DNA of 44,804 nucleotides. Source: Escherichia phage JLBYU60. Of the stretch, positions 3,544 to 43,512 are shown piece after piece; the first letter of the stretch is position 1, and each line of letters opens with the position of its first letter. Made by a program: the position numbers and the translations under genes. The notes below the pieces were generated by a model, which was given only the letters and a program-made list of their open reading frames with translations, was not told where the DNA came from and did no database searches. The stretch lies in the sequence record NC_073052.1; one strand, 5' to 3'.

Positions 3544-4630
3544 TCAATATATGGCGGATCGCATGATTCGCCGTCACATCTTCACCCAGCGCCTGAGCAA
3601 TGATCAGGCGCGAAGGGTGCTGGCTATGTGGGAGAAGTTCCGGCCCGCTTTACTTGGTAAGCTGACCGAGTTACTTGATGGCAAAAAGTCCATGAATAAC
3701 AAAGCACTTACCACACTGTTAACGCAACTCGACAAGACCGTCAAAACGGAACTGCGCACCGAGTTTAAGGCGTTGGCTGAAAGCCTTCAGGAGTTCGCCG
3801 ACACCGAGGCTGATTATCTCGCCGACACATTAACGGCAGCGATCCAGCCGGTAGTCGCCGTACCGGCGGTCGAGGTGGTTGGCGTAGTGACCGGCGCGCA
3901 GATCGCAGCAACGGCAATGAAAAACCCGTTCCAGGGCAATACCATGATGCAATGGCCTGACTCACTTTCTGAGTGGACCAGGACGCAGATCGGTAATCAG
4001 GTGCGGGCGGGATTCATCCAGGGCAAGCCAACGATGGAAATTATCGCGGACGTGAGGCGCGCGCTAGGCGGTCGTAGTGCGCAAGCCATCTCAAGCGTTG
4101 TTAAGTCCGCAGTAAACCACTATGCGGCGACTGCCCGCGAACTAATGGTAAAAGCAAATGACGATATTCTCGAAGGTCGCCAATGGTTATCTACATTGGA
4201 CACACATACTTCTCCCATGTGCCAGCTACGCGATCGCCTGTTTTATCCGGTTGATGTTACTCCCGACACCAAAGGAAAGCGCGGCGGGAAAGTGGTGGCG
4301 GGGTCGCAGTATGGCGCTGGCCCTGGCAAGCTGCATTATTGCTGCCGGTCGACGGAGACGTGGAAAGTCAAAGGCATGGAAGATTGGCCCAGTGGTAAGC
4401 GTCCGGCACTGAAGGCCGACGCGGGTCGATTGCTGAGTGAGCAGGTAGACGCGCAGACTGATTTCTTCTCATGGGTGCAGCGCCAGCCGCGCCATATCCT
4501 GGAAGAATTATATGGAGTGCAACGCGCCGACCAGATTATGCGCGGCGTGAAAGTGCCGAAGATGTTCACCGATTCTGGCGAACTGATGACTATTGCACAG
4601 CTTAAAAACCGGGGGTTATGGCGTGATTAA
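3527..4630 (+). CDS. Head morphogenesis / minor capsid protein (SPP1 gp7 / Mu F-like, putative)
   Basis: 367-aa ORF overlapping the portal stop; position between portal and scaffold is typical for this family; no motif-level confirmation. Confidence 0.5.
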   Translation: MARTINQYMADRMIRRHIFTQRLSNDQARRVLAMWEKFRPALLGKLTELLDGKKSMNNKALTTLLTQLDKTVKTELRTEFKALAESLQEFADTEADYLADTLTAAIQPVVAVPAVEVVGVVTGAQIAATAMKNPFQGNTMMQWPDSLSEWTRTQIGNQVRAGFIQGKPTMEIIADVRRALGGRSAQAISSVVKSAVNHYAATARELMVKANDDILEGRQWLSTLDTHTSPMCQLRDRLFYPVDVTPDTKGKRGGKVVAGSQYGAGPGKLHYCCRSTETWKVKGMEDWPSGKRPALKADAGRLLSEQVDAQTDFFSWVQRQPRHILEELYGVQRADQIMRGVKVPKMFTDSGELMTIAQLKNRGLWRD

Positions 4631-4952
4631 ATATGCAGCGATTGGACTGGTTATCGGTCTGGCGGTAGGATTCTGGCTAGGTGACTCCTATCGCGCTGGC
4701 GTAGTGGCGGAGGCGGCGCAAGAAGCGCAAGCCCAAGCCCAACGGCAGCAAACTAAAGTAATCGAGCGCTCCGTGCAGGCAGAACAAGCCCGCGACGTGG
4801 AATACCGGACTATCACAAAAGAGGTTGTTAAATATGTTACGCGCCCTGACCGCCCTGATTGTAGTTTTGACGCTGAGCGCGTGCGGATCAAGCAGCGTGC
4901 CGTTGATGCCGCTAACGGAGTCGGCACTGCGACCGCCGTGCAAGTTCGATAA
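4623..4952 (+). CDS. Putative i-spanin (Rz-like inner membrane spanin)
   Basis: N-terminal TM helix IGLVIGLAVGFWLG followed by A/Q/E/R-rich coiled-coil segment; probable GTG start at 4623 preceded by GGGGG RBS (six-frame ORF begins at TTG 4593); contains the o-spanin gene in the +1 frame. Confidence 0.6.
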   Translation: MIKYAAIGLVIGLAVGFWLGDSYRAGVVAEAAQEAQAQAQRQQTKVIERSVQAEQARDVEYRTITKEVVKYVTRPDRPDCSFDAERVRIKQRAVDAANGVGTATAVQVR

Positions 4953-5064
4953 CCCGTCTGCGGACCCCGACGAAGATTTGATGATTGACGTGAAAAATAT
5001 GGAATGCGGGGCGAAGCTGAGGGCGCAGGTGTTGGAGTTGCAGCAAATAATTAAGGGGCCGTAA
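4834..5064 (+). CDS. Putative o-spanin (Rz1-like outer membrane lipoprotein)
   Basis: Signal peptide with lipobox LTLSAC-G, proline-rich mature part; ATG 4834 with RBS AAGAGG; starts inside the i-spanin gene in another frame and extends beyond it (overlapped architecture). Confidence 0.7.
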   Translation: MLRALTALIVVLTLSACGSSSVPLMPLTESALRPPCKFDNPSADPDEDLMIDVKNMECGAKLRAQVLELQQIIKGP

Positions 5065-17008: not shown

Positions 17009-17616
17009 CAACGTTTAAATTGTACGGCGTCTTAGGGCGTCGATTCGGTAAAGTGCATAAGCTGGATTGCTTCACTCCGGGCGAAGGAATCACCGGCTTG
17101 TGTGTGAAGTTGCCTGGGTTACAAGACTTTTTAATGTCGGCCCACCTGGACAACATGATGTTCAAGGTGCGCAAAGGCGACCACACAATGACCGGCTATG
17201 ATGAGCTAGGAGAGTTCCACGGCAACCGCGTCGTTACCATCGCGCCGGTTATGACTGGCGCAAAAAGGGGGCTGGGCCAATTGCTGGCAGGTGTCGCGAT
17301 CGTAGTGGCGTCGTTCTATACGGGCGGACTTGCTACTGCCGCTTTCGGGGCTTCGGCTGCAACCGCTGCCGCTATCGGTACGGCGACGTTTTCGTTCGGT
17401 ATGTCGATGGCGCTGGGTGGCGTTATGCAATTGCTGTCGCCACAACCGAAAGGATTGCAGACAAGGCAGGACGTGGATAACAAGGCGTCGTATGCGTTCG
17501 GCGGCCCAGTAAACACGACCGCGCAAGGCACAGCACTTGGTGTATTATGGGGCGAGCGCGAGATCGGCGGCGCTATTATTTCAGCCGGAATCGTAACCGA
17601 GGACTTGAACGAATGA
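16999..17616 (+). CDS. Tail assembly protein (lambda gpI-like)
   Basis: 205 aa; glycine/alanine-rich hydrophobic C-terminal region; position between gpK-like and gpJ-like genes. Confidence 0.7.
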   Translation: MAMTTFKLYGVLGRRFGKVHKLDCFTPGEGITGLCVKLPGLQDFLMSAHLDNMMFKVRKGDHTMTGYDELGEFHGNRVVTIAPVMTGAKRGLGQLLAGVAIVVASFYTGGLATAAFGASAATAAAIGTATFSFGMSMALGGVMQLLSPQPKGLQTRQDVDNKASYAFGGPVNTTAQGTALGVLWGEREIGGAIISAGIVTEDLNE

Positions 17617-20600
17617 CGATTATCTACGACGTCACAGGGCATAAAGGCGGCGGCGGCAAACAGCACACCCCACAGGAGACGCCCGATAGCCTGCATTCGC
17701 TGGCTAAAATCCGCATCTTGCTTGCACTGGGCGAGGGTGAATTCGAAAGTATTACCAGCGCCAGCGAATTGCGGCAGCGAGTATATCTGGATGGAACGCC
17801 GATCCAGAACGCGGACTTGTCCGAAAACTTCCCCGGCGCGCGAGTGGAGTTCCGCCCAGGCACACAGCACCAGGACGTGATCCACGGATTTTCAGCGGTG
17901 GAAAGTGAGCAATCCGTCGGTGTAAAACTGGAAAACGGCACGCCGTGGGTGCGCCAGATTAATGACACCAGTTTGGACGCCGTGCGCATTCGCATCGGCA
18001 TTCCGGCCTTGTACACTAACGAAGATAATGGCGACCTGGTGGGCGGGCGCATCGACTATAAGATAGTTGTGTATACGGATAACGCCGACCCGCGTGAGTT
18101 CAGATTCGCCGCCGTTGGTAAAACAATGTCGCTGTATGAGCGCGACCACCGCATCGAATTACCGTCGAACGTGAATACCGGCTGGCGCGTGGAGGTGCAC
18201 CGCATAACGGCAGACTCCACATCGGCGAAAGTGGTTAATGATATCCGGGTGCAGTCCATCACTGAGATTATTGACGCCCGCCTGCGTTACCCGCTAACCG
18301 CGCTGTTGTTTGTGGAGTTCGACGCCAAAGCGTTCCAGAACATCCCGCGCGTGTCCATTAAGTGCAAAGGCCGTAAAGTTCTAATACCGAACAACTACGA
18401 CCCGATTAATCATACCTATTCCGGGGACTGGGACGGCACGTTTAAACGCGCATGGACGGATAACCCTGCGTGGCACTGGTACGATATTTGTATTACTGAA
18501 CGCTTCGGCCTCGGCCGGCGTATCAAACCGCAAATGTTAAACCGGTACGCGCTCTACCAGATTGCGCAGCGCTGCGATCAGTTGGTCAGCGACGGCAACG
18601 GTGGTCGAGAAATCCGCTTTAAGAATGATATGTACATCCAGTCGCAGACAGACGCCTGGACCGTGCTTAAGGATTTGGCTGCCATCTTCGCCGGAATGAC
18701 CTGGTGGGGTAACCAGATGTTGAATATTGTCAGTGACCAACCGGTCGCAGCAGTGTCGCACACTATCACCAACGCCTCGGTAATTGATGGGCGATTCGAC
18801 TACGCATCTGGTAGCCAGAAAACGCGCTATTCCACATTCGCGGTAGCATACGGCAATCCGAAAAACCACTATGAAGATGCTATCGCAACGGGGCAACGTG
18901 TCGAACTGGTACGCCGCCATAAGATTAACCGTCTTGATATTACGGCGATCGGCTGTACGCGTGAATCTGAAGCGCAACGCCGCGGGCACTGGGCGCTAAT
19001 TTCCAACCAGCTTGACCAGCAAGTTAGCTTTAAGGTTGGCATGGAGGGACTTTTCTTTATTCCGGGTAGCGTAGTCGCGATCGCCGATACAAACATTTCT
19101 GGCGGCTTCGAGACACGCGGCGGTCGCCTGTTGACAGATCCCGGCACGCGTACCGTGCTGAACACAGACAGCGAAATCACGTTCCGCCCAGGTGATAAAT
19201 TCCTGGTACGCACCGATAGCGGTAATGTGGAGACTCGCGAGATCGCCAGCGTCAACGGCAACAAGGTTACGCTAAAAACCGCACTGGACGCCGACCCTAT
19301 TCCGGACCAGCCGTTTTGCGTTGATGGCGACGATATCCAGTTGCAGAAGTTCCGCATCACCGATCTGGAATATGACGACTCTACGAGCACTTTCTCGGTG
19401 CGCGGGATTGAATACAACGATAGCAAATATGATGCCGTTGATAATGGCGCGCGCCTAGACCCGGGCATCTTTACGCAAGTGCCTGACGGCGTAATGAAGG
19501 GGCCGGAATCCGTGACCATCACCCCGTCGCAGATTTCATCGCAAGGACAGCTAATCACCAACGTGGATATTGTTTTCCCGCCGGTGAAGGACGCCGTGGT
19601 GTATGAAATCCAGTGGCGACGCACCAGCTTGCAGAATATGGAAATCCAGTGGGGTAACGACTGGGTGAATATCCCGCGCACGGCATCGAACGGTGCGCAC
19701 ATCCCTAACGTGTTCTCAGGTAACTACCAGGCACGCGTCCGCGCAATTGGCATGGGCGAAATCTCGTCACCGTGGGTGTCTTCCGCAATCACGCCAGTTG
19801 AAGGTCGCCTCGGCGGTCTTAACGCGCCTATCATCACCAACGCGATTTCGGGCCTCCACCAGATCTTGTGGAAGTGGAACCACAACAACGCCGCTACGGA
19901 TATTTCGTACACCGAGCTTGAAGTGCGCAAGACCGGTGAGACTGAATGGAAATTCCTTACCAACGTCCCATATCCGGGGGCGGAGTATGCGCAAACATCG
20001 CTGGAGTTCGGAATTTACCAGCAGTTGCGCGCCCGTGTAGCGGATAAAATCGGCAACCTGTCGGACTGGTCGGCCCCGTTTGAAGGGCAGGTGAGTGACA
20101 AAGTTGACGAGTACATGAAGGGGCTTGATGACGAGTTCTTGACTTCCGAGGATGGTAAACGCTTCCAGGAAGCAATCAACACGATCCCGCAGGGTATTTA
20201 CGAGGCGATGCTCACCGATGCGCAGCAATTGTTCAACGCCCGCGCCGAGTACAAGGGTATTTATGCGGAAATCTCGGTCGCGTATAACGTGGCGGCGGAC
20301 GCCCACAAGGCGGTCGCTCAACTGGAGACGTTGATCGGCACGCGACTTGATGACGCGGAAGCTGCGATCCACACGTTGCAGACCGCGCAGAGCACACAGG
20401 AACAAGCGTTCGCCCAGTATCAGCAAACTGTTGCCGCTAAGTTCGGGGAACAGGAAGCCGCCATCCAGCAGGTACAAACGGCAACCGCAGACGTGGCGGG
20501 AGCGCTGGCGGAATATAAGACCCAGGTCGCGACACAGTTTGGTCAGCAGTCCGCCGCTATCGAGCAGAAGATGACGTCCTCGTTTAACCATGCTGGTGGC

Positions 20601-21032
20601 AGCGCCACGTACAGTCTTAAGGCTGGCGTGACGTATAACGGGACTTACTATGACGCCGGTATGCAGCTTTCAGTTGTTACGTCAGGCAACGCAGTTAAAT
20701 CTCGTATCGCGTTCAAAGCCGACCAGTTCTATATCATGCACCCGTCAAATGGGTCGCTTTCGTCCGCGTTTATCGTTGACGGCGGGCAGGTGTATATTGA
20801 CACGGCACGCATCAAGGACGCGTCAATCAACTTTGCACAGATCACGGACACGCTGCAATCGAATAACTACGACGGCAGTACGCGTGGTTGGCGCTTAGGG
20901 AAAGACGGAACGTTTATCAACCTGGGGACTGGAAGCGGCGGCGGGATGAAACAGACGAACACAAGAATCAGCGTGAAGGACGGAAACGGCGTTCTCCGCG
21001 TGCAGATTGGTGAGCTTACTGGTAGCTGGTAG
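17613..21032 (+). CDS. Central tail fibre / host specificity protein (lambda gpJ-like)
   Basis: 1140 aa from ATG 17613 (overlaps gpI-like stop, ATGA); long stretch YSGDWDGTFKRAWTDNPAWHWYDICITERFGLGRRI...YQIAQRCDQLVSDGNGG closely parallels lambda J (YSGIWDGTFK...MAWCLWDML...GQYCDQSVPDGFGG), as recalled from memory. Confidence 0.9.
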   Translation: MTIIYDVTGHKGGGGKQHTPQETPDSLHSLAKIRILLALGEGEFESITSASELRQRVYLDGTPIQNADLSENFPGARVEFRPGTQHQDVIHGFSAVESEQSVGVKLENGTPWVRQINDTSLDAVRIRIGIPALYTNEDNGDLVGGRIDYKIVVYTDNADPREFRFAAVGKTMSLYERDHRIELPSNVNTGWRVEVHRITADSTSAKVVNDIRVQSITEIIDARLRYPLTALLFVEFDAKAFQNIPRVSIKCKGRKVLIPNNYDPINHTYSGDWDGTFKRAWTDNPAWHWYDICITERFGLGRRIKPQMLNRYALYQIAQRCDQLVSDGNGGREIRFKNDMYIQSQTDAWTVLKDLAAIFAGMTWWGNQMLNIVSDQPVAAVSHTITNASVIDGRFDYASGSQKTRYSTFAVAYGNPKNHYEDAIATGQRVELVRRHKINRLDITAIGCTRESEAQRRGHWALISNQLDQQVSFKVGMEGLFFIPGSVVAIADTNISGGFETRGGRLLTDPGTRTVLNTDSEITFRPGDKFLVRTDSGNVETREIASVNGNKVTLKTALDADPIPDQPFCVDGDDIQLQKFRITDLEYDDSTSTFSVRGIEYNDSKYDAVDNGARLDPGIFTQVPDGVMKGPESVTITPSQISSQGQLITNVDIVFPPVKDAVVYEIQWRRTSLQNMEIQWGNDWVNIPRTASNGAHIPNVFSGNYQARVRAIGMGEISSPWVSSAITPVEGRLGGLNAPIITNAISGLHQILWKWNHNNAATDISYTELEVRKTGETEWKFLTNVPYPGAEYAQTSLEFGIYQQLRARVADKIGNLSDWSAPFEGQVSDKVDEYMKGLDDEFLTSEDGKRFQEAINTIPQGIYEAMLTDAQQLFNARAEYKGIYAEISVAYNVAADAHKAVAQLETLIGTRLDDAEAAIHTLQTAQSTQEQAFAQYQQTVAAKFGEQEAAIQQVQTATADVAGALAEYKTQVATQFGQQSAAIEQKMTSSFNHAGGSATYSLKAGVTYNGTYYDAGMQLSVVTSGNAVKSRIAFKADQFYIMHPSNGSLSSAFIVDGGQVYIDTARIKDASINFAQITDTLQSNNYDGSTRGWRLGKDGTFINLGTGSGGGMKQTNTRISVKDGNGVLRVQIGELTGSW

Positions 21033-21035
21033 TAT

Positions 21036-21056
21036 GGGGGCTTCGGCCCCTTTTTA
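21036..21056 (+). terminator. Rho-independent terminator after gpJ-like gene
   Basis: GGGGC-ttcg-GCCCC followed by TTTTT. Confidence 0.75.
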
Positions 21057-21068
21057 ACGAGGTTATTT

Positions 21069-21371
21069 ATGGCATTCGGTATCGCAACGTGGGACGCGCA
21101 AGGACGCCCAAACAACTACGGCATTAAACCGGTAAGCGTGATCGGAAGGATTCATCTTGCGGAAGGACAAAAATCAGGCGCATGGTCATTCCCTGTACCG
21201 GCGGGGATGAAGGTCGGATACGTGGTCGCACTGGATAAAGGCGCGGTCGGGCCAGGACGCAGAATCACCGCCAGCGGGAACACTATCACGGTTTCCGCAG
21301 CAAGTGAGGTTGGTGGCGGGGTTTACTCCGCATCTGAATGTGACGTTATTGTTTTTGTGGAGCGAGCATAA
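21069..21371 (+). CDS. Hypothetical tail-associated protein
   Basis: 100-aa ORF after the gpJ terminator with plausible RBS; no recognisable motif. Confidence 0.45.
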   Translation: MAFGIATWDAQGRPNNYGIKPVSVIGRIHLAEGQKSGAWSFPVPAGMKVGYVVALDKGAVGPGRRITASGNTITVSAASEVGGGVYSASECDVIVFVERA

Positions 21372-22045
21372 TGGCTAATTACGGCGCGTTGATTGACTTA
21401 CCAAACGGCAACCCGTTTATCACGCCAGAATCGACGCCGTTTTGTCTATTCCGCCGTGTGGTTGTTGGGTCTTCGGCTAACGGCACTGCGCAGTCGGCGG
21501 CTGCCGATATTAATTTGGGTGGTGACTACCCTGCAATAGCGTTTGTGAAAACTACGCACACCGCCCAGCCGACCGTAGTAGGGTCTTCTCGCGTTGGTAA
21601 TGTGGTGAAGGTGAGCGCCAGCAATCCATTCGGGCAGGGCTTCACGATGACGGCTTACATCTTTGCTATATTCCCACAGACCCTTCCGCGGTGGGGCTTC
21701 GCTATTTGGGATAAGACGGGGAAGCTAGTGCTTACTAATGAGAGTCGCGTACTAAGTGATTTAGTTACCGTCGGATCGCCAGGCGCTAACGGGGGGATTA
21801 ACATTGACCAGACGCTAAACGGCAGCTACGCCGTCGCTCCGGGCATATTGGGGTCTACGCTGATCCGGTTTTTTGTGCAGGGCCAGCCGCAAGTAATATC
21901 GGTAACGGCGTACACGGGGGCCAGATTTGATGGGTCGCGAACGCGTATATCGGCAGCGTCGTCGGGGAACGCCACGGGGGATGTGGTGGGGTATACTAAC
22001 AACGGCAACGCGATTATGGCGATTAACACCGCCAATTATGATTGA
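21371..22045 (+). CDS. Hypothetical tail-associated protein
   Basis: 224 aa, start overlaps upstream stop (TAATG); between gpJ and the side tail fibre. Confidence 0.45.
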   Translation: MANYGALIDLPNGNPFITPESTPFCLFRRVVVGSSANGTAQSAAADINLGGDYPAIAFVKTTHTAQPTVVGSSRVGNVVKVSASNPFGQGFTMTAYIFAIFPQTLPRWGFAIWDKTGKLVLTNESRVLSDLVTVGSPGANGGINIDQTLNGSYAVAPGILGSTLIRFFVQGQPQVISVTAYTGARFDGSRTRISAASSGNATGDVVGYTNNGNAIMAINTANYD

Positions 22046-22046
22046 A

Positions 22047-22069
22047 GAAAGCCCCGAAAGGGGCTTATT
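22047..22069. terminator. Bidirectional terminator between convergent genes
   Basis: AAAGCCCC-gaaa-GGGGCTT with A-run upstream and T-rich tract downstream; between + gene ending 22045 and - lipoprotein gene ending 22065. Confidence 0.65.
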
Positions 22070-22283
22070 TGCAGGTTGTGCTTTTGAAGTGGTCTACAGA
22101 CACGTACTGGAAGCCGAACGGATAGCCCGCCCTTAGCATTTTATGCCCGGAGAAGTCTGCAACACCATACACAGGGACCGCATAATCCATACCGCCAGTG
22201 TGGTATGTCGCGTCGCAGATTTTTGACGGCATACCGGCACAACCTGACAGAAGAACCGCACAAATCATAATTAAAGTTTTCAT
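22065..22283 (-). CDS. Small lipoprotein, candidate superinfection-exclusion protein (Cor/Llp-like)
   Basis: 72 aa from ATG 22283 with RBS AGGAGATGA; signal peptide MKTLIMICAVLLSGC with lipobox LSG-C; antisense gene embedded among tail fibre genes with its own sigma70-like promoter. Confidence 0.6.
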   Translation of the reverse strand: MKTLIMICAVLLSGCAGMPSKICDATYHTGGMDYAVPVYGVADFSGHKMLRAGYPFGFQYVSVDHFKSTTCK

Positions 22284-22314
22284 GGTATCATCTCCTATAT
22301 TTGGTTGAGTTTTA

Positions 22315-22346
22315 GTATTACACCGCCCAACCAGGATTGCAACCAA
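22315..22346 (-). promoter_or_regulatory. Putative promoter for the antisense lipoprotein gene
   Basis: On minus strand: ATTGGTTGCAA containing -35 TTGCAA (22342-22337), 16-bp spacer, -10 TAATAC (22320-22315). Confidence 0.4.
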
Positions 22347-22363
22347 TTTAAGAGGATTTAGCT

Positions 22364-24049
22364 ATGGCAGCGGGTACACTATCCGTAACGAATAACAGCA
22401 AGGCGGTTGTCGGGGTAGGCACGACGTTTACCGCGTTTAAAGCTGGCGACTTCTTAACGCTGGTGGTAGGACAAGTCCCCTACACCGTGGCAATCGCGTC
22501 CATTGAAAGCGCAACCGCGCTTACGCTGGTGCTGCCGTTCGACGGCCCAACGGCAACCGGCCTCGCGTGGGATGGCGTTAAGCGCGATACCATGTCGCTG
22601 GCAACGATGGGCGTTACCGTACAGGCTCAAAAAGCATTGCGCTTGATGATTGCAGATGAAAACAACTGGCGTGCAATCTTCGGCGACGCTGAAGAAATCA
22701 CGGTCACGCTGCCGAACGGGCAGGTGATGCAGGGTATGTCATGGGGCTACCTGTCGCAGTTGATGAAACAGATCGACCCAGTGGAAATGCGCGACCTGCA
22801 ACAACAAGCCGCCGCATCGGAAGCAGCCGCGCAAGGATTTCGCAATGAGGCAGAAGGCTTCAAAAACGACACCAACACCATCAAGACGCAGACCAACCAG
22901 ATTAAGACGGACACACAGGCTATCCACGACGCCACCAATACCATCAAGACGCAGACCAACCAGATTAAGACGGATACGCAGGCCATCAAGGACCAGACCA
23001 ACCAAATTAAGACGGATACCGGAGTTATTCGCGACCAGGCCAACACCGCGAAGACGGACGCGCAAGCCGCCCGCGATGCCGCGCAGGTATACAGGGACGA
23101 GGCCGAACAATTCAAAAATGAGGTTGACCCGTCTCAATACGCTAAGGTAAGTAACAACCTCACCGACCTCACCGACAAAACCGCGGCACGGCAGACTCTC
23201 AACGCAATCGGCGTCGGGGATTATGGCATCGGAGGCGGCGCACCTGGCGGAAGTTGGGACACAGCAGATGATAGCACCCTGATCGCTACAAACACAGGGT
23301 CCCCACTAGGTGACGTCTCCGTAGCGGGTGTGCATGTTAAGTTTGCGCAAAACTATGCTGTACAGTTCGCGGCGCGTCAAAGCCGATTTTTCTGGCGAAC
23401 TAAAGAGAATGGGGCGCTACAGAATTGGTGCGAAGCGGTGAAGCCGGGGGACTACGGACTAGGGATTGAAAACTCAGTCCCCCCGCCGAATACGCAGGCT
23501 TGCTTTTTCTCGCAGTCGATCGGAACACCGACTTGGGCACCTGCAAACGGCGCAGGATTTCAATCGGCCTACTCGCCCTCTCGTGTCGCACAGCTTATGG
23601 TCGGCGCGTTGCCAGCGCTCTACTATCGTTGGAACACCTCCGGCAACGCGCAAGTCTCCGCTTCGACGGCGCCGTGGTCACGGGTGCAAGATGCCGGTAC
23701 GTCTGACGCCCGTGTGAAGGATATTAAGGGAAATTTAAATGTGGAGGCGGCGCTGGATAACATCAACCGCCTTGAGTTTAAGTTATTCCGGTATACGTTT
23801 GACGAACCGGAGCGATCTACGCGACGCGGAATCATTGCACAGCAAGCGGCAACGGTTGACCGGGAATATGTGCACGACCACGAAGTTCCGGGGATGATGA
23901 CGTTAGACTTAAACCCGCTTGTCGCGGATTGCCTGGCGGCTATTAAAGCGTTAAGAGCGCGTGACGAGGCGAACAAGGCCGAGATTGCAGAACTGAAAGC
24001 TGCCGTAGCGGATTTGAAAGCCGCGGTCGCGGCGCTGACTAAAGCATAA
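22364..24049 (+). CDS. Side tail fibre with C-terminal intramolecular chaperone (peptidase S74-like) domain
   Basis: 561 aa; tandem 21-aa repeats (NTIKTQTNQIKTDTQAI...); C-terminal region DARVKDIKG...LEFKLFRYTFD...GIIAQQAATVD typical of auto-cleaving chaperone domains of phage fibres/endosialidases; terminator downstream. Confidence 0.75.
   Translation: MAAGTLSVTNNSKAVVGVGTTFTAFKAGDFLTLVVGQVPYTVAIASIESATALTLVLPFDGPTATGLAWDGVKRDTMSLATMGVTVQAQKALRLMIADENNWRAIFGDAEEITVTLPNGQVMQGMSWGYLSQLMKQIDPVEMRDLQQQAAASEAAAQGFRNEAEGFKNDTNTIKTQTNQIKTDTQAIHDATNTIKTQTNQIKTDTQAIKDQTNQIKTDTGVIRDQANTAKTDAQAARDAAQVYRDEAEQFKNEVDPSQYAKVSNNLTDLTDKTAARQTLNAIGVGDYGIGGGAPGGSWDTADDSTLIATNTGSPLGDVSVAGVHVKFAQNYAVQFAARQSRFFWRTKENGALQNWCEAVKPGDYGLGIENSVPPPNTQACFFSQSIGTPTWAPANGAGFQSAYSPSRVAQLMVGALPALYYRWNTSGNAQVSASTAPWSRVQDAGTSDARVKDIKGNLNVEAALDNINRLEFKLFRYTFDEPERSTRRGIIAQQAATVDREYVHDHEVPGMMTLDLNPLVADCLAAIKALRARDEANKAEIAELKAAVADLKAAVAALTKA
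22877..23020 (+). repeat. In-frame tandem 63-bp repeats within tail fibre gene
   Basis: About 2.3 copies of accatcaagacgcagaccaaccagattaagacgga... (21-aa unit TIKTQTNQIKTDTQAI). Confidence 0.8.
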
Positions 24050-42323: not shown

Positions 42324-42614
42324 ATGGATAAGCTAAACGAGTGGTTATTCGCCCTTGCGTGTCTTGCTGGTGGCTTCGTCGGCGCACGCATTCACGGCGA
42401 GGCTACGAAAGGGCCGCTAAACTTCGTGTTATATATCGTAGTTGGCTTCCTGTGTGCCATCTTTGGTGCGCCAGCTATCGCCGAGTGGGCTGGCTTATCT
42501 GGCGAGCGCACTGTCGCCGGTTTGGGCTTCGTAACTGCAATCTTCTGGATGCCAATAGCCGCCCGGATCAGGGAGACTATTGAGTCGTTCCGACTTCCGG
42601 GGGGCGCAAAATGA
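42324..42614 (+). CDS. Putative holin
   Basis: 96 aa with three predicted TM segments; immediately upstream of a second small membrane protein and the endolysin. Confidence 0.55.
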   Translation: MDKLNEWLFALACLAGGFVGARIHGEATKGPLNFVLYIVVGFLCAIFGAPAIAEWAGLSGERTVAGLGFVTAIFWMPIAARIRETIESFRLPGGAK

Positions 42615-42856
42615 TTATCTCCGTCCTGTTGTTTGTTATCATAGGGGCTTCGTCCCTGTTTAACGTGTATGCGCCGTCCGTTCAGGATGGCTTCTTCGGT
42701 CGGGTGTTATATCTGCTTACGGCGATGGTCTGCATTATCGGACTGTTGCAAACCGGAGACGTATCTGACGCCACCTGGACCGCGTTAATCTGGTTGTTTG
42801 CATTGCGCACGCTGCGTAATGCTGTTCTAAATGGGGTAAAACATGCGATTCAGTGA
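42611..42856 (+). CDS. Putative second holin / antiholin
   Basis: 81 aa with 2-3 TM segments; start overlaps upstream stop (ATGA); precedes endolysin. Confidence 0.5.
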   Translation: MIISVLLFVIIGASSLFNVYAPSVQDGFFGRVLYLLTAMVCIIGLLQTGDVSDATWTALIWLFALRTLRNAVLNGVKHAIQ

Positions 42857-43334
42857 CAACGGTCTAAGATTTACGGCAGCATGGGAGCAATTCAGCCCAG
42901 TGCCGTATTTTGCGACTAAGAAAGAGCAGGCCCGCGGCCTGTATACCTGGGGCTATGGTCACACCGGCACTAATCCGCCGCGGAGCATTACCCGTGCGGA
43001 AGCACTGGAGCTACTCAAGCGCGACGTGGCGTATGCCGAGAACTGGGTAAACAAGTACGCACACCCGAGCATCAACCAGGCGCAATTCGACGCGCTGGTG
43101 GACCTGGTTATCAATGCCGGTCCTGGTCCGATCATGCCGGACGACGTCGCCGGAGACTTCGACGATGCGATCCGCCTGGGTGACTGGGCAAAGGTCCGTG
43201 CTACGCTGCCACAATTCCGCAAGCAAGGCGGGGCAGTGCTCAAGGGGCTTGTCCGTCGTGCAATCGGCAGGCAGGCACTATTTGATGGTAAGCAGTGGGA
43301 CGTTGCCGAGAAAATCGGGCGAAACGCCGCATAA
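42843..43334 (+). CDS. Endolysin (phage lysozyme, GH24-like)
   Basis: 163 aa; N-terminal catalytic region TAAWEQFSPVPYFATKKEQARGLYTWGYGHTG matching the Glu...Asp...Thr pattern of T4-type lysozymes. Confidence 0.8.
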   Translation: MRFSDNGLRFTAAWEQFSPVPYFATKKEQARGLYTWGYGHTGTNPPRSITRAEALELLKRDVAYAENWVNKYAHPSINQAQFDALVDLVINAGPGPIMPDDVAGDFDDAIRLGDWAKVRATLPQFRKQGGAVLKGLVRRAIGRQALFDGKQWDVAEKIGRNAA

Positions 43335-43350
43335 TACGAGGAGACACAGT

Positions 43351-43512
43351 ATGTTAAAAAGCATTCTTGATCATAACGCCGACGCGCTCGCCGCGCTGGC
43401 TAAAACCGAAGACCCAGGCGCTCGCGCCATTATCGCGGACACTATCAGTCATGCTGGCGTATTTGACGCGAAGCTGCCGAGTCCGCCACCGCCCGCAGAG
43501 ACTGAAGAGTAA
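43351..43512 (+). CDS. Small hypothetical protein
   Basis: 53 aa from ATG 43351 with RBS GAGGAG; followed by rho-independent terminator. Confidence 0.4.
   Translation: MLKSILDHNADALAALAKTEDPGARAIIADTISHAGVFDAKLPSPPPPAETEE

What the first reader, a model, noticed from the sequence alone, without database searches (positions are those of the whole stretch)
22065..22283. Antisense small lipoprotein gene among tail fibre genes: candidate superinfection exclusion factor
A 72-aa lipoprotein (MKTLIMICAVLLSGC...) is encoded on the opposite strand between the gpJ-associated genes and the side tail fibre gene, with its own sigma70-like promoter and a bidirectional terminator. This mirrors the arrangement of receptor-blocking lipoproteins such as T5 Llp and T1/phi80 Cor, which sit beside receptor-binding protein genes and mask the receptor after infection. 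Spanins are already accounted for elsewhere, making an o-spanin role unlikely.
Basis: partly seen in the sequence, partly recalled or inferred. Interest (0 to 1): 0.6.

Follow-up and report, generated by a model that had tools for sequence, protein, structure and literature searches.

The report
Phage Cor receptor-blocking lipoprotein gene
The small antisense gene is an ordinary member of the well-known Cor family of phage lipoproteins, which switch off the FhuA receptor after infection so that further phages cannot attach; close relatives already carry this annotation.

Summary
The 72-codon ORF at 22065-22283 (minus strand) is real. It has a strong ribosome-binding site, a lipoprotein signal peptide with the lipobox LSGC, and dN/dS of about 0.09 across eight relatives. 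It is not just similar to Cor; it is Cor. It matches PHROG 1119 "Cor superinfection exclusion protein" (E 1.8e-27) and the NCBIfam equivalog NF047972 "phage exclusion lipoprotein Cor" (62.6 bits, cut-off 31). It aligns full length with Cor of T1 (48%), HK022 (46%) and phi80 (43%).

The window is a Dhillonvirus genome, about 94% identical to JLBYU37, Gluttony and Envy. Many of these relatives already annotate this gene as cor. The layout J, 100-aa gene, 224-aa gene, hairpin, then antisense cor is the same as in phage T1.

The predicted fold's best PDB match is T5 Llp bound to FhuA, though the match is weak (E 0.11). Llp falls in the same PHROG, and its disulfide cysteines are conserved here.

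The terminator hairpin is supported. The claimed promoter is a conserved match that falls below the scan threshold.

Function in this phage is inferred, not tested.

The parts
22065..22283 (-). cor: 72-aa precursor of the phage exclusion lipoprotein Cor (stop codon included)
   Evidence: ORF list. PHROG 1119 E 1.8e-27. NCBIfam NF047972 62.6 bits against a cut-off of 31. tblastn to T1, HK022 and phi80 Cor. dN/dS 0.09.
22239..22283 (-). Lipoprotein signal peptide (MKTLIMICAVLLSG) plus the lipidated Cys15. Residue +2 is Ala, so outer-membrane sorting is expected.
   Evidence: Read from the sequence and found by the lipobox pattern scan. Cys15 is invariant in 63 family members. Lol sorting is inferred from the established +2 rule.
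22291..22296 (-). Shine-Dalgarno AGGAGA, 7 nt upstream of the ATG
   Evidence: Sequence. Conserved in relatives as AGGAGA or AGGGGA.
22314..22342 (-). Promoter-like element: TTGCAA, 17-nt spacer, TGnAATACT (extended -10). Candidate own promoter of cor.
   Evidence: Read by eye. The -35 hexamer and the TG are kept in 8 of 8 Dhillonvirus relatives, the -10 hexamer in 7 of 8. NOT called by the consensus scan. Inference only.
22049..22066 (.). Hairpin AAGCCCC-GAAA-GGGGCTT between the convergent 224-aa gene and cor. Probable bidirectional intrinsic terminator. It overlaps the cor stop codon.
   Evidence: Folds on both strands, z -2.5 and -3.3. One compensatory A:T to G:C change and variable loops in relatives. 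T1 has an annotated rho-independent terminator at the same place. Not called by the simple scan.
21069..21371 (+). 100-aa gene of the FhuA-associated cassette downstream of J (PHROG name 'outer membrane protein'; proposed part of the receptor-binding locus)
   Evidence: PHROG 557 E 1e-32. 54% identical to T1 orf32. Literature: PMC8594841, PMC13164509.
21371..22045 (+). 224-aa gene of the same cassette (PHROG name 'membrane associated protein'; proposed receptor-binding protein)
   Evidence: PHROG 425 E 4.6e-70. 53% identical to T1 orf31. 100% identical at the protein level in phages Envy and Lust.
17547..21032 (+). J-like central tail fibre / tail tip protein, immediately upstream of the cassette
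   Evidence: PHROG 31 'central tail fiber J', E 0.

Best explanation
The gene is cor, the phage exclusion lipoprotein of the Cor/Llp family, in a virulent Dhillonvirus that most likely uses FhuA as its terminal receptor. It is transcribed against the late tail operon, probably from its own promoter, so it can be made independently of tail-gene expression. [quoted passage not shown] The mature 57-residue beta-rich domain is held by a Cys23-Cys71 disulfide. [quoted passage not shown] This is expected to block superinfection by this phage and by other FhuA-dependent phages. It should also keep progeny from being wasted on FhuA in the debris of lysed cells. Shown here: the ORF, its signals, family membership, conserved cysteines, the gene neighbourhood and purifying selection. 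Inferred: localisation, FhuA binding, the allosteric mechanism (by homology to T5 Llp) and the timing of expression.
For: Family membership: PHROG 1119 'Cor superinfection exclusion protein', E 1.8e-27, full length. NCBIfam equivalog NF047972, 62.6 bits against a cut-off of 31. tblastn full-length matches to T1 Cor (48%, 3e-14), HK022 (46%) and phi80 (43%). The lipobox Cys, Cys23 and Cys71 are invariant in 63 homologues. Neighbourhood: the J, 100-aa, 224-aa, terminator, antisense-cor layout is the same as in T1, and the two upstream proteins are 53-54% identical to T1's. Link to Llp: T5 Llp falls in the same PHROG. hhalign of the Cor alignment against Llp gives probability 84%, E 7.6e-6, with all three Cys aligned. 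The AF2 model (pLDDT 82.7, above 90 in the mature domain) has FhuA-bound Llp (8a60_B) as its best hit among 350,542 PDB chains. Receptor: the close relatives JLBYU37, JLBYU60 and Teewinot were shown to need FhuA loop 8, and bob and Envy are cited there as shown earlier to be FhuA-dependent (PMC10373560). Llp binding moves FhuA loops EL7 and EL8 (PMC9586334). The cor cassette tracks FhuA use in BASEL phages, including Dhillonvirus (PMC13164509). Selection: dN/dS 0.09.
Against: No experiment on this protein or on any Dhillonvirus Cor was found in the literature searched. The Foldseek match to Llp is the top hit but is not significant on its own (E 0.11, TM 0.52-0.59). The promoter is below the scan threshold, so early or independent expression is unproven. 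Cor/Llp-like lipoproteins of some phages accompany BtuB use (PMC13164509), so family membership alone does not fix the receptor. Pfam has no model that matches.
Confidence: 0.88

Rival explanations
1. It is an outer-membrane spanin subunit (o-spanin) needed for the last step of lysis.
For: It is a small outer-membrane-type lipoprotein. The lysis cassette at 42324-43334 (two holins and an endolysin) has no spanin next to it.
Against: A proper overlapping i-spanin/o-spanin pair lies at 4593-4952 and 4834-5064 and matches the 'Rz-like spanin' PHROGs 2536 and 5672. Relatives annotate the same pair. The ORF in question has no i-spanin partner, no spanin family hit, and matches Cor families instead.
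Confidence: 0.01
2. It is a Cor/Llp-family exclusion lipoprotein that blocks a TonB-dependent transporter or outer-membrane protein other than FhuA (for example BtuB).
For: Cor/Llp-like lipoproteins occur in phages reported to use BtuB (PMC13164509). Other Dhillonviruses use LptD, BtuB or LamB with other lipoproteins at the same locus (PMC8594841 and PMC12685063). The gene is locally more diverged than its neighbours.
Against: The full three-gene cassette homologous to T1's is present. In BASEL phages that cassette co-occurs only with FhuA use. Relatives with about 94% DNA identity here, and a 99-100% identical 224-aa protein, are experimentally FhuA-dependent: JLBYU37, and Envy as cited from earlier work. 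The protein passes an equivalog-level Cor model.
Confidence: 0.07
3. It is a lipoprotein 'moron' with a host-directed role unrelated to receptor masking (for example serum resistance like lambda Bor) or with no function in this virulent phage.
For: The gene is a separate transcription unit with moron-like structure (own promoter-like site and a terminator). HK022 cor is annotated as a moron.
Against: Strong purifying selection in virulent phages. Fixed position beside the receptor-recognition genes in T1, phi80, HK022, SSU5 and Erwinia phages. Homology to proteins whose exclusion function was shown experimentally, as cited in PMC9586334 and 10.64898/2026.03.26.714494.
Confidence: 0.04

Closest known systems
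Cor of phage T1 (orf30, AAP49969)
   Same: 48% identical over the full length. Same lipobox and the same two conserved cysteines. Identical locus: J, about 100-aa gene, about 225-aa gene, terminator, then antisense cor in a virulent siphovirus. The neighbouring proteins are 53-54% identical.
   Different: A different phage group (Dhillonvirus versus Drexlerviridae/Tunavirus). In T1 the next gene block is recombination genes, whereas here the lateral tail fibre gene follows directly.
Cor of temperate phages phi80, N15, HK022 and mEp167 (NCBIfam NF047972)
   Same: 43-46% identity, same family model, same cassette downstream of J. These are the proteins for which exclusion of FhuA-dependent phages was shown (cited).
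   Different: In the temperate phages cor is co-directional with J and acts as a lysogenic-conversion gene. They also carry a 3-residue insertion (EKQ) after the lipobox that is absent here.
Llp of phage T5 (PDB 8A60 chain B, 7QJF)
   Same: Same PHROG 1119. Profile match with probability 84% and the three Cys aligned. Best PDB fold match. The gene lies beside the receptor-binding protein gene, on the opposite strand, with its own promoter. Relatives of this phage need FhuA loop 8, and Llp displaces EL7 and EL8.
   Different: Only about 22-25% identity. The T5 receptor-binding protein pb5 is unrelated to the 100-aa/224-aa cassette. A direct sequence search of the PDB does not find Llp.
Rtp45 of phage Rtp, and the lipoprotein bas18_0026 that PMC12685063 calls the SE lipoprotein of Oekolampad (Dhillonvirus) (PDB 9RPS for Rtp45)
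   Same: An exclusion lipoprotein encoded in the locus downstream of J together with the receptor-binding protein gene, as described in PMC12685063 and PMC8594841. I did not inspect these loci myself.
   Different: Rtp45 targets LptD and acts by steric displacement of loops rather than TonB-transporter allostery. No sequence relationship was seen in my searches.

Membership tests
Cor phage exclusion lipoprotein (NCBIfam NF047972 / PHROG 1119) | Sequence matches the curated family model above its cut-off over the full length | tested here: met
   NF047972 equivalog: 62.6 bits against a cut-off of 31, residues 2-71. PHROG 1119: E 1.8e-27, residues 1-72.
Cor phage exclusion lipoprotein (NCBIfam NF047972 / PHROG 1119) | Type II (lipoprotein) signal peptide with a lipobox cysteine, giving a mature protein of about 57-62 aa | tested here: met
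   MKTLIMICAVLLSG|C. Cys15 is invariant in 63 homologues. No dedicated predictor (LipoP or SignalP) was available.
Cor phage exclusion lipoprotein (NCBIfam NF047972 / PHROG 1119) | Two further conserved cysteines near the N and C termini of the mature protein (the disulfide that is essential in Llp) | tested here: met
   C23 and C71 are invariant and align with Llp C11 and C58 of the mature protein (PMC9586334). Actual bond formation was not testable.
Cor phage exclusion lipoprotein (NCBIfam NF047972 / PHROG 1119) | Encoded directly after the J gene and the two-gene (about 100 aa plus about 225 aa) cassette | tested here: met
Cor phage exclusion lipoprotein (NCBIfam NF047972 / PHROG 1119) | The phage uses FhuA as terminal receptor | not testable with these tools
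   Literature only. JLBYU37, JLBYU60 and Teewinot were shown to be FhuA-dependent, and bob and Envy are cited there as shown earlier (PMC10373560). The window's length, 44,804 bp, equals that listed for JLBYU60, but that record is not in the collection.
Cor phage exclusion lipoprotein (NCBIfam NF047972 / PHROG 1119) | Expression excludes FhuA-dependent phages and inactivates FhuA transport | not testable with these tools
   Requires plating and albomycin or colicin M assays.
T5 Llp-like fold and mechanism | Compact beta-rich fold superposable on FhuA-bound Llp | tested here: inconclusive
   AF2 pLDDT 82.7 with four beta-strands. 8a60_B is rank 1 of 350,542 chains, but E is 0.11, TM 0.52/0.59 and rmsd 3.2 A over 54 columns.
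T5 Llp-like fold and mechanism | Binds the periplasmic face of FhuA | not testable with these tools
   No complex prediction tool was available. An AF3 model for KanT1 Cor with FhuA is reported with ipTM 0.84 (PMC13164509).
o-spanin | Lipoprotein gene embedded in, overlapping or adjacent to an i-spanin gene, with a spanin family match | tested here: not met
   There is no i-spanin neighbour and no spanin PHROG hit. The true spanin pair is at 4593-5064.

The most novel reading that the evidence does not exclude
cor behaves as an independently exchanged and faster-diverging module. Against Gluttony and GeorgBuechner it is 91% and 82% identical at the DNA level, while the adjacent 100-aa and 224-aa genes are 97-98% identical. 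Against Dru_SM5 the 3' half of the 224-aa gene has no synonymous difference, while cor has dS of about 0.55. Most of this window's own amino-acid differences from its relatives lie in residues 17-35 of the precursor. This could reflect an arms race, for example adaptation to FhuA or plug variants, or escape from competitors that overcome exclusion, rather than simple mosaicism.
Probability: 0.12. Interest if true: 0.35.

Novelty: already known. Interest (0 to 1): 0.1.

Why it matters
The finding confirms a correct functional call made from raw sequence, but it adds nothing new. Cor/Llp lipoproteins beside receptor-binding genes are a textbook exclusion strategy of T1-, T5- and lambda-like siphoviruses, and the gene is annotated as cor in dozens of Dhillonvirus records. 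It has two practical uses. The cor cassette is a genomic marker predicting FhuA as the terminal receptor. Cells or lysates expressing it would resist other FhuA-dependent phages, which matters for phage cocktail design.

Tried and rejected
Pfam has no family for this protein. A direct sequence search of the PDB found only a chance signal-peptide match to TraV, E 0.79. The word-indexed homologue search with the single sequence reached only 6 close relatives, so an alignment with T1, phi80 and HK022 Cor was needed to reach 341. The exhaustive phmmer search found just 19 cluster representatives, which shows a small enterobacterial-phage family. The consensus promoter/terminator scan called neither the proposed promoter nor the hairpin. 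The only minus-strand 'promoter' it reported overlaps the start codon and was discarded. The longer 93-aa TTG-started ORF (22346), which one relative (ZCEC12) annotates, was rejected because it would bury the signal peptide and has no RBS. The o-spanin reading was rejected. Retrieval of the JLBYU60 record to confirm the window's identity failed because it is not in the collection. My ungapped dN/dS comparison of the 224-aa gene across its two alleles is meaningless, since those sequences are misaligned; only within-allele pairs were used.

Full report
**Observation**

The window carries a 72-codon ORF on the minus strand. Its ATG is at 22283-22281 and its TAA stop at 22067-22065, exactly the coordinates given. 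AGGAGA lies 7 nt upstream of the ATG (22296-22291). The N terminus, MKTLIMICAVLLSG|C, is a classical lipoprotein signal peptide with a lipobox. The residue after the lipidated Cys is Ala, so by the established Lol +2 rule the protein should go to the outer membrane (inference).

A pattern scan of every possible start in all six frames found only two such lipoprotein ORFs in the 44.8-kb window: this one and an ORF at 4834-5064. Across eight Dhillonvirus relatives the gene has mean dN 0.062 and mean dS 0.66, a ratio of 0.09. It is therefore a protein-coding gene under purifying selection, not a chance antisense ORF.

**Context**

The window is a complete-looking Dhillonvirus genome. The region 21000-23000 is about 94% identical to phages JLBYU37, Gluttony, Envy and others.

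Upstream on the + strand lie three genes:
- the J-like central tail fibre (17547-21032);
- a 100-aa gene (21069-21371, PHROG 557);
- a 224-aa gene (21371-22045, PHROG 425).

Downstream is the lateral tail fibre gene (22364-24049, PHROG 1980).

The window length, 44,804 bp, equals the length listed for the FhuA-dependent Dhillonvirus JLBYU60 in PMC10373560. That record is not in the searchable collection, so the identification is an inference.

**What it is**

The protein matches PHROG 1119 "Cor superinfection exclusion protein" over its full length (E 1.8e-27). It also matches the NCBIfam equivalog NF047972 "phage exclusion lipoprotein Cor" at 62.6 bits against a curated cut-off of 31.

tblastn gives full-length matches to:
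- T1 Cor (48%, 3e-14);
- HK022 Cor (46%);
- phi80 Cor (43%);
- about 75 Dhillonvirus records at 82-93% identity, many annotated "Cor superinfection exclusion protein".

In alignments of 9 and of 63 family members, the lipobox Cys15, Cys23, Cys71, A52, G53 and F66 are invariant. The surrounding RAGYPF segment is only largely conserved; P55 and F56 are kept in at least 90% of sequences. Pfam has no model.

**Locus architecture**

Phage T1 has the same arrangement: J, orf32 (101 aa), orf31 (229 aa), a rho-independent terminator, then cor on the opposite strand. The two upstream proteins of the window are 54% and 53% identical to T1's. In the temperate phages phi80 and HK022, in SSU5 and in an Erwinia phage, the same cassette is present but cor is co-directional. 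The antisense orientation is thus the normal state in the two virulent lineages examined, not a peculiarity of this window.

The literature describes this cassette downstream of J as the receptor-recognition plus exclusion locus of small siphoviruses. It ties the cor cassette to FhuA use, including in Dhillonvirus (PMC8594841; PMC13164509; PMC11990801).

**Regulatory signals**

The hairpin AAGCCCC-GAAA-GGGGCTT (22049-22066) sits between the two convergent stop codons. It folds stably on both strands, with z -2.5 on + and -3.3 on -. In relatives the GCCCC/GGGGC core of the stem is invariant while the loop varies (TTTC, GGAA, GAAC, GAAA). GeorgBuechner shows a compensatory A:T to G:C change. The T tracts are short, and the simple scan did not call it. 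A bidirectional terminator is nevertheless the reasonable reading, and T1 has one annotated at the same spot.

For the promoter, the scan found nothing upstream of the ATG. By eye there is TTGCAA (22342-22337), a 17-nt spacer and TGnAATACT (22322-22314), which is an extended -10 type site. The -35 hexamer and the TG are conserved in all eight relatives and the -10 hexamer in seven; Dru_SM5 reads GATACT. The whole intergenic region is about as conserved as its surroundings, so conservation is not independent proof.

**Mechanism**

T5 Llp (sequence verified at 100% against T5 records) falls in the same PHROG 1119 (E 1.1e-19). A profile comparison of the Cor alignment with Llp gives probability 84% and E 7.6e-6. 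The lipobox Cys and both disulfide cysteines align.

An AlphaFold2 model built on 63 homologues has mean pLDDT 82.7, above 90 across the mature domain, with four beta-strands. Its best match among 350,542 PDB chains is Llp in the FhuA-Llp crystal structure (8a60_B): TM 0.52/0.59, rmsd 3.2 A and 22% identity. With E = 0.11 this is a lead rather than proof. In BFVD the best matches are a Dhillonvirus exclusion protein and lipoproteins of T5-like phages.

Published work bears on the mechanism:
- The C11-C58 disulfide is essential.
- Cor proteins are considered to be of the same family and mechanism.
- The Dhillonviruses JLBYU37, JLBYU60 and Teewinot require FhuA loop 8 (PMC10373560).

The most likely mechanism therefore runs in four steps. 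Cor is made independently of the late tail operon. It is lipidated and sorted to the outer membrane. It binds FhuA from the periplasm. It switches off the surface loops that the phage needs. This would exclude FhuA-dependent phages and spare progeny from adsorbing to debris. All steps after "it is a Cor-family lipoprotein" are inferred by homology.

**Rivals**

The o-spanin reading is rejected. A proper overlapping i-/o-spanin pair lies at 4593-4952 and 4834-5064 (PHROGs 2536 and 5672). Relatives annotate the same pair, and the cor ORF has no i-spanin partner.

A different receptor target, such as BtuB, cannot be fully excluded from sequence. It is unlikely, given the T1-type cassette and the FhuA dependence of near-identical relatives.

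**Novelty**

None. The gene, its family, its position and its presumed function are all described and annotated.

The only mildly interesting residue is that cor is locally more diverged than its neighbours. It is 90.7% and 81.9% identical at the DNA level to Gluttony and GeorgBuechner, against 97-98% for the adjacent 100-aa and 224-aa genes. Against Dru_SM5, dS is about 0.55 for cor and 0 for the 3' half of the 224-aa gene. This points to independent exchange of the cor module.

Noticed in passing
window 22068-22283 versus 21069-22042: cor is a local hot spot of divergence. It is 90.7% and 81.9% identical at the DNA level to Gluttony and GeorgBuechner, while the adjacent 100-aa and 224-aa genes are 97-98% identical. 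Against Dru_SM5 the last 375 nt of the 224-aa gene have no synonymous change, but cor has dS of about 0.55. A recombination boundary seems to lie at the terminator hairpin, so cor is exchanged as its own module.
   Followed up: partly
window 4593-5064 (+) and 42324-43334 (+): The spanin pair (i-spanin 4593-4952, overlapping o-spanin 4834-5064) sits among the head genes, right after the head-morphogenesis gene. It is separated from the holin-holin-endolysin cassette at 42324-43334. The ORF following the endolysin (about 43351-43512, PHROG 11068, 53 aa) has no membrane or lipoprotein signal.
   Followed up: partly
L010, L011, L013 (SSL-2009a, ZCEC12, YD-2008.s) versus window 21371-22045: Dhillonviruses carry two clearly different alleles of the 224-aa putative receptor-binding protein. 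Other Dhillonviruses with a divergent allele (UAE_MI-01, PaulFeyerabend, Pubbukkers, SECphi18) are 52-54% identical to the window's protein, and the C-terminal sequences of SSL-2009a, ZCEC12 and YD-2008.s differ visibly. Both alleles are paired with closely related Cor proteins (82-88% identity). Whether both alleles target FhuA was not checked.
   Followed up: no
window 22244-22271 (+): A sigma70-like site (CTGACA, 16-nt spacer, CATAAT; 10 of 12 matches) lies on the + strand inside the cor coding sequence and points toward the lateral tail fibre gene that starts at 22364. It could restart transcription after the terminator hairpin. If so, it would overlap and collide with cor transcription.
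   Followed up: no
window 22364-24049 (+): The lateral tail fibre gene has a conserved 5' end (94% to Gluttony) but a divergent distal part (44-66%). It has a 63-nt tandem repeat (22866-23002, 2.2 copies) encoding TNTIKTQTNQIKTDTQAI-type heptad-like repeats. It also has a C-terminal Peptidase_S74 intramolecular chaperone domain at residues 447-503.
   Followed up: partly
window 21069-22045 (+): [quoted passage not shown] Neither has a signal peptide or a hydrophobic segment in its sequence, and neither has a Pfam or NCBIfam hit. Recent literature treats them as the receptor-binding module (PMC8594841; 10.64898/2026.04.02.716166), whereas PMC13164509 suggests an exclusion-related role.
   Followed up: partly
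whole window: The window length (44,804 bp) is identical to the genome length listed for the FhuA-dependent phage JLBYU60 (OK272474) in PMC10373560. That accession is absent from the phage collection. The exact Cor protein was found only on one 4.5-kb Logan contig, SRR25464442.
   Followed up: partly
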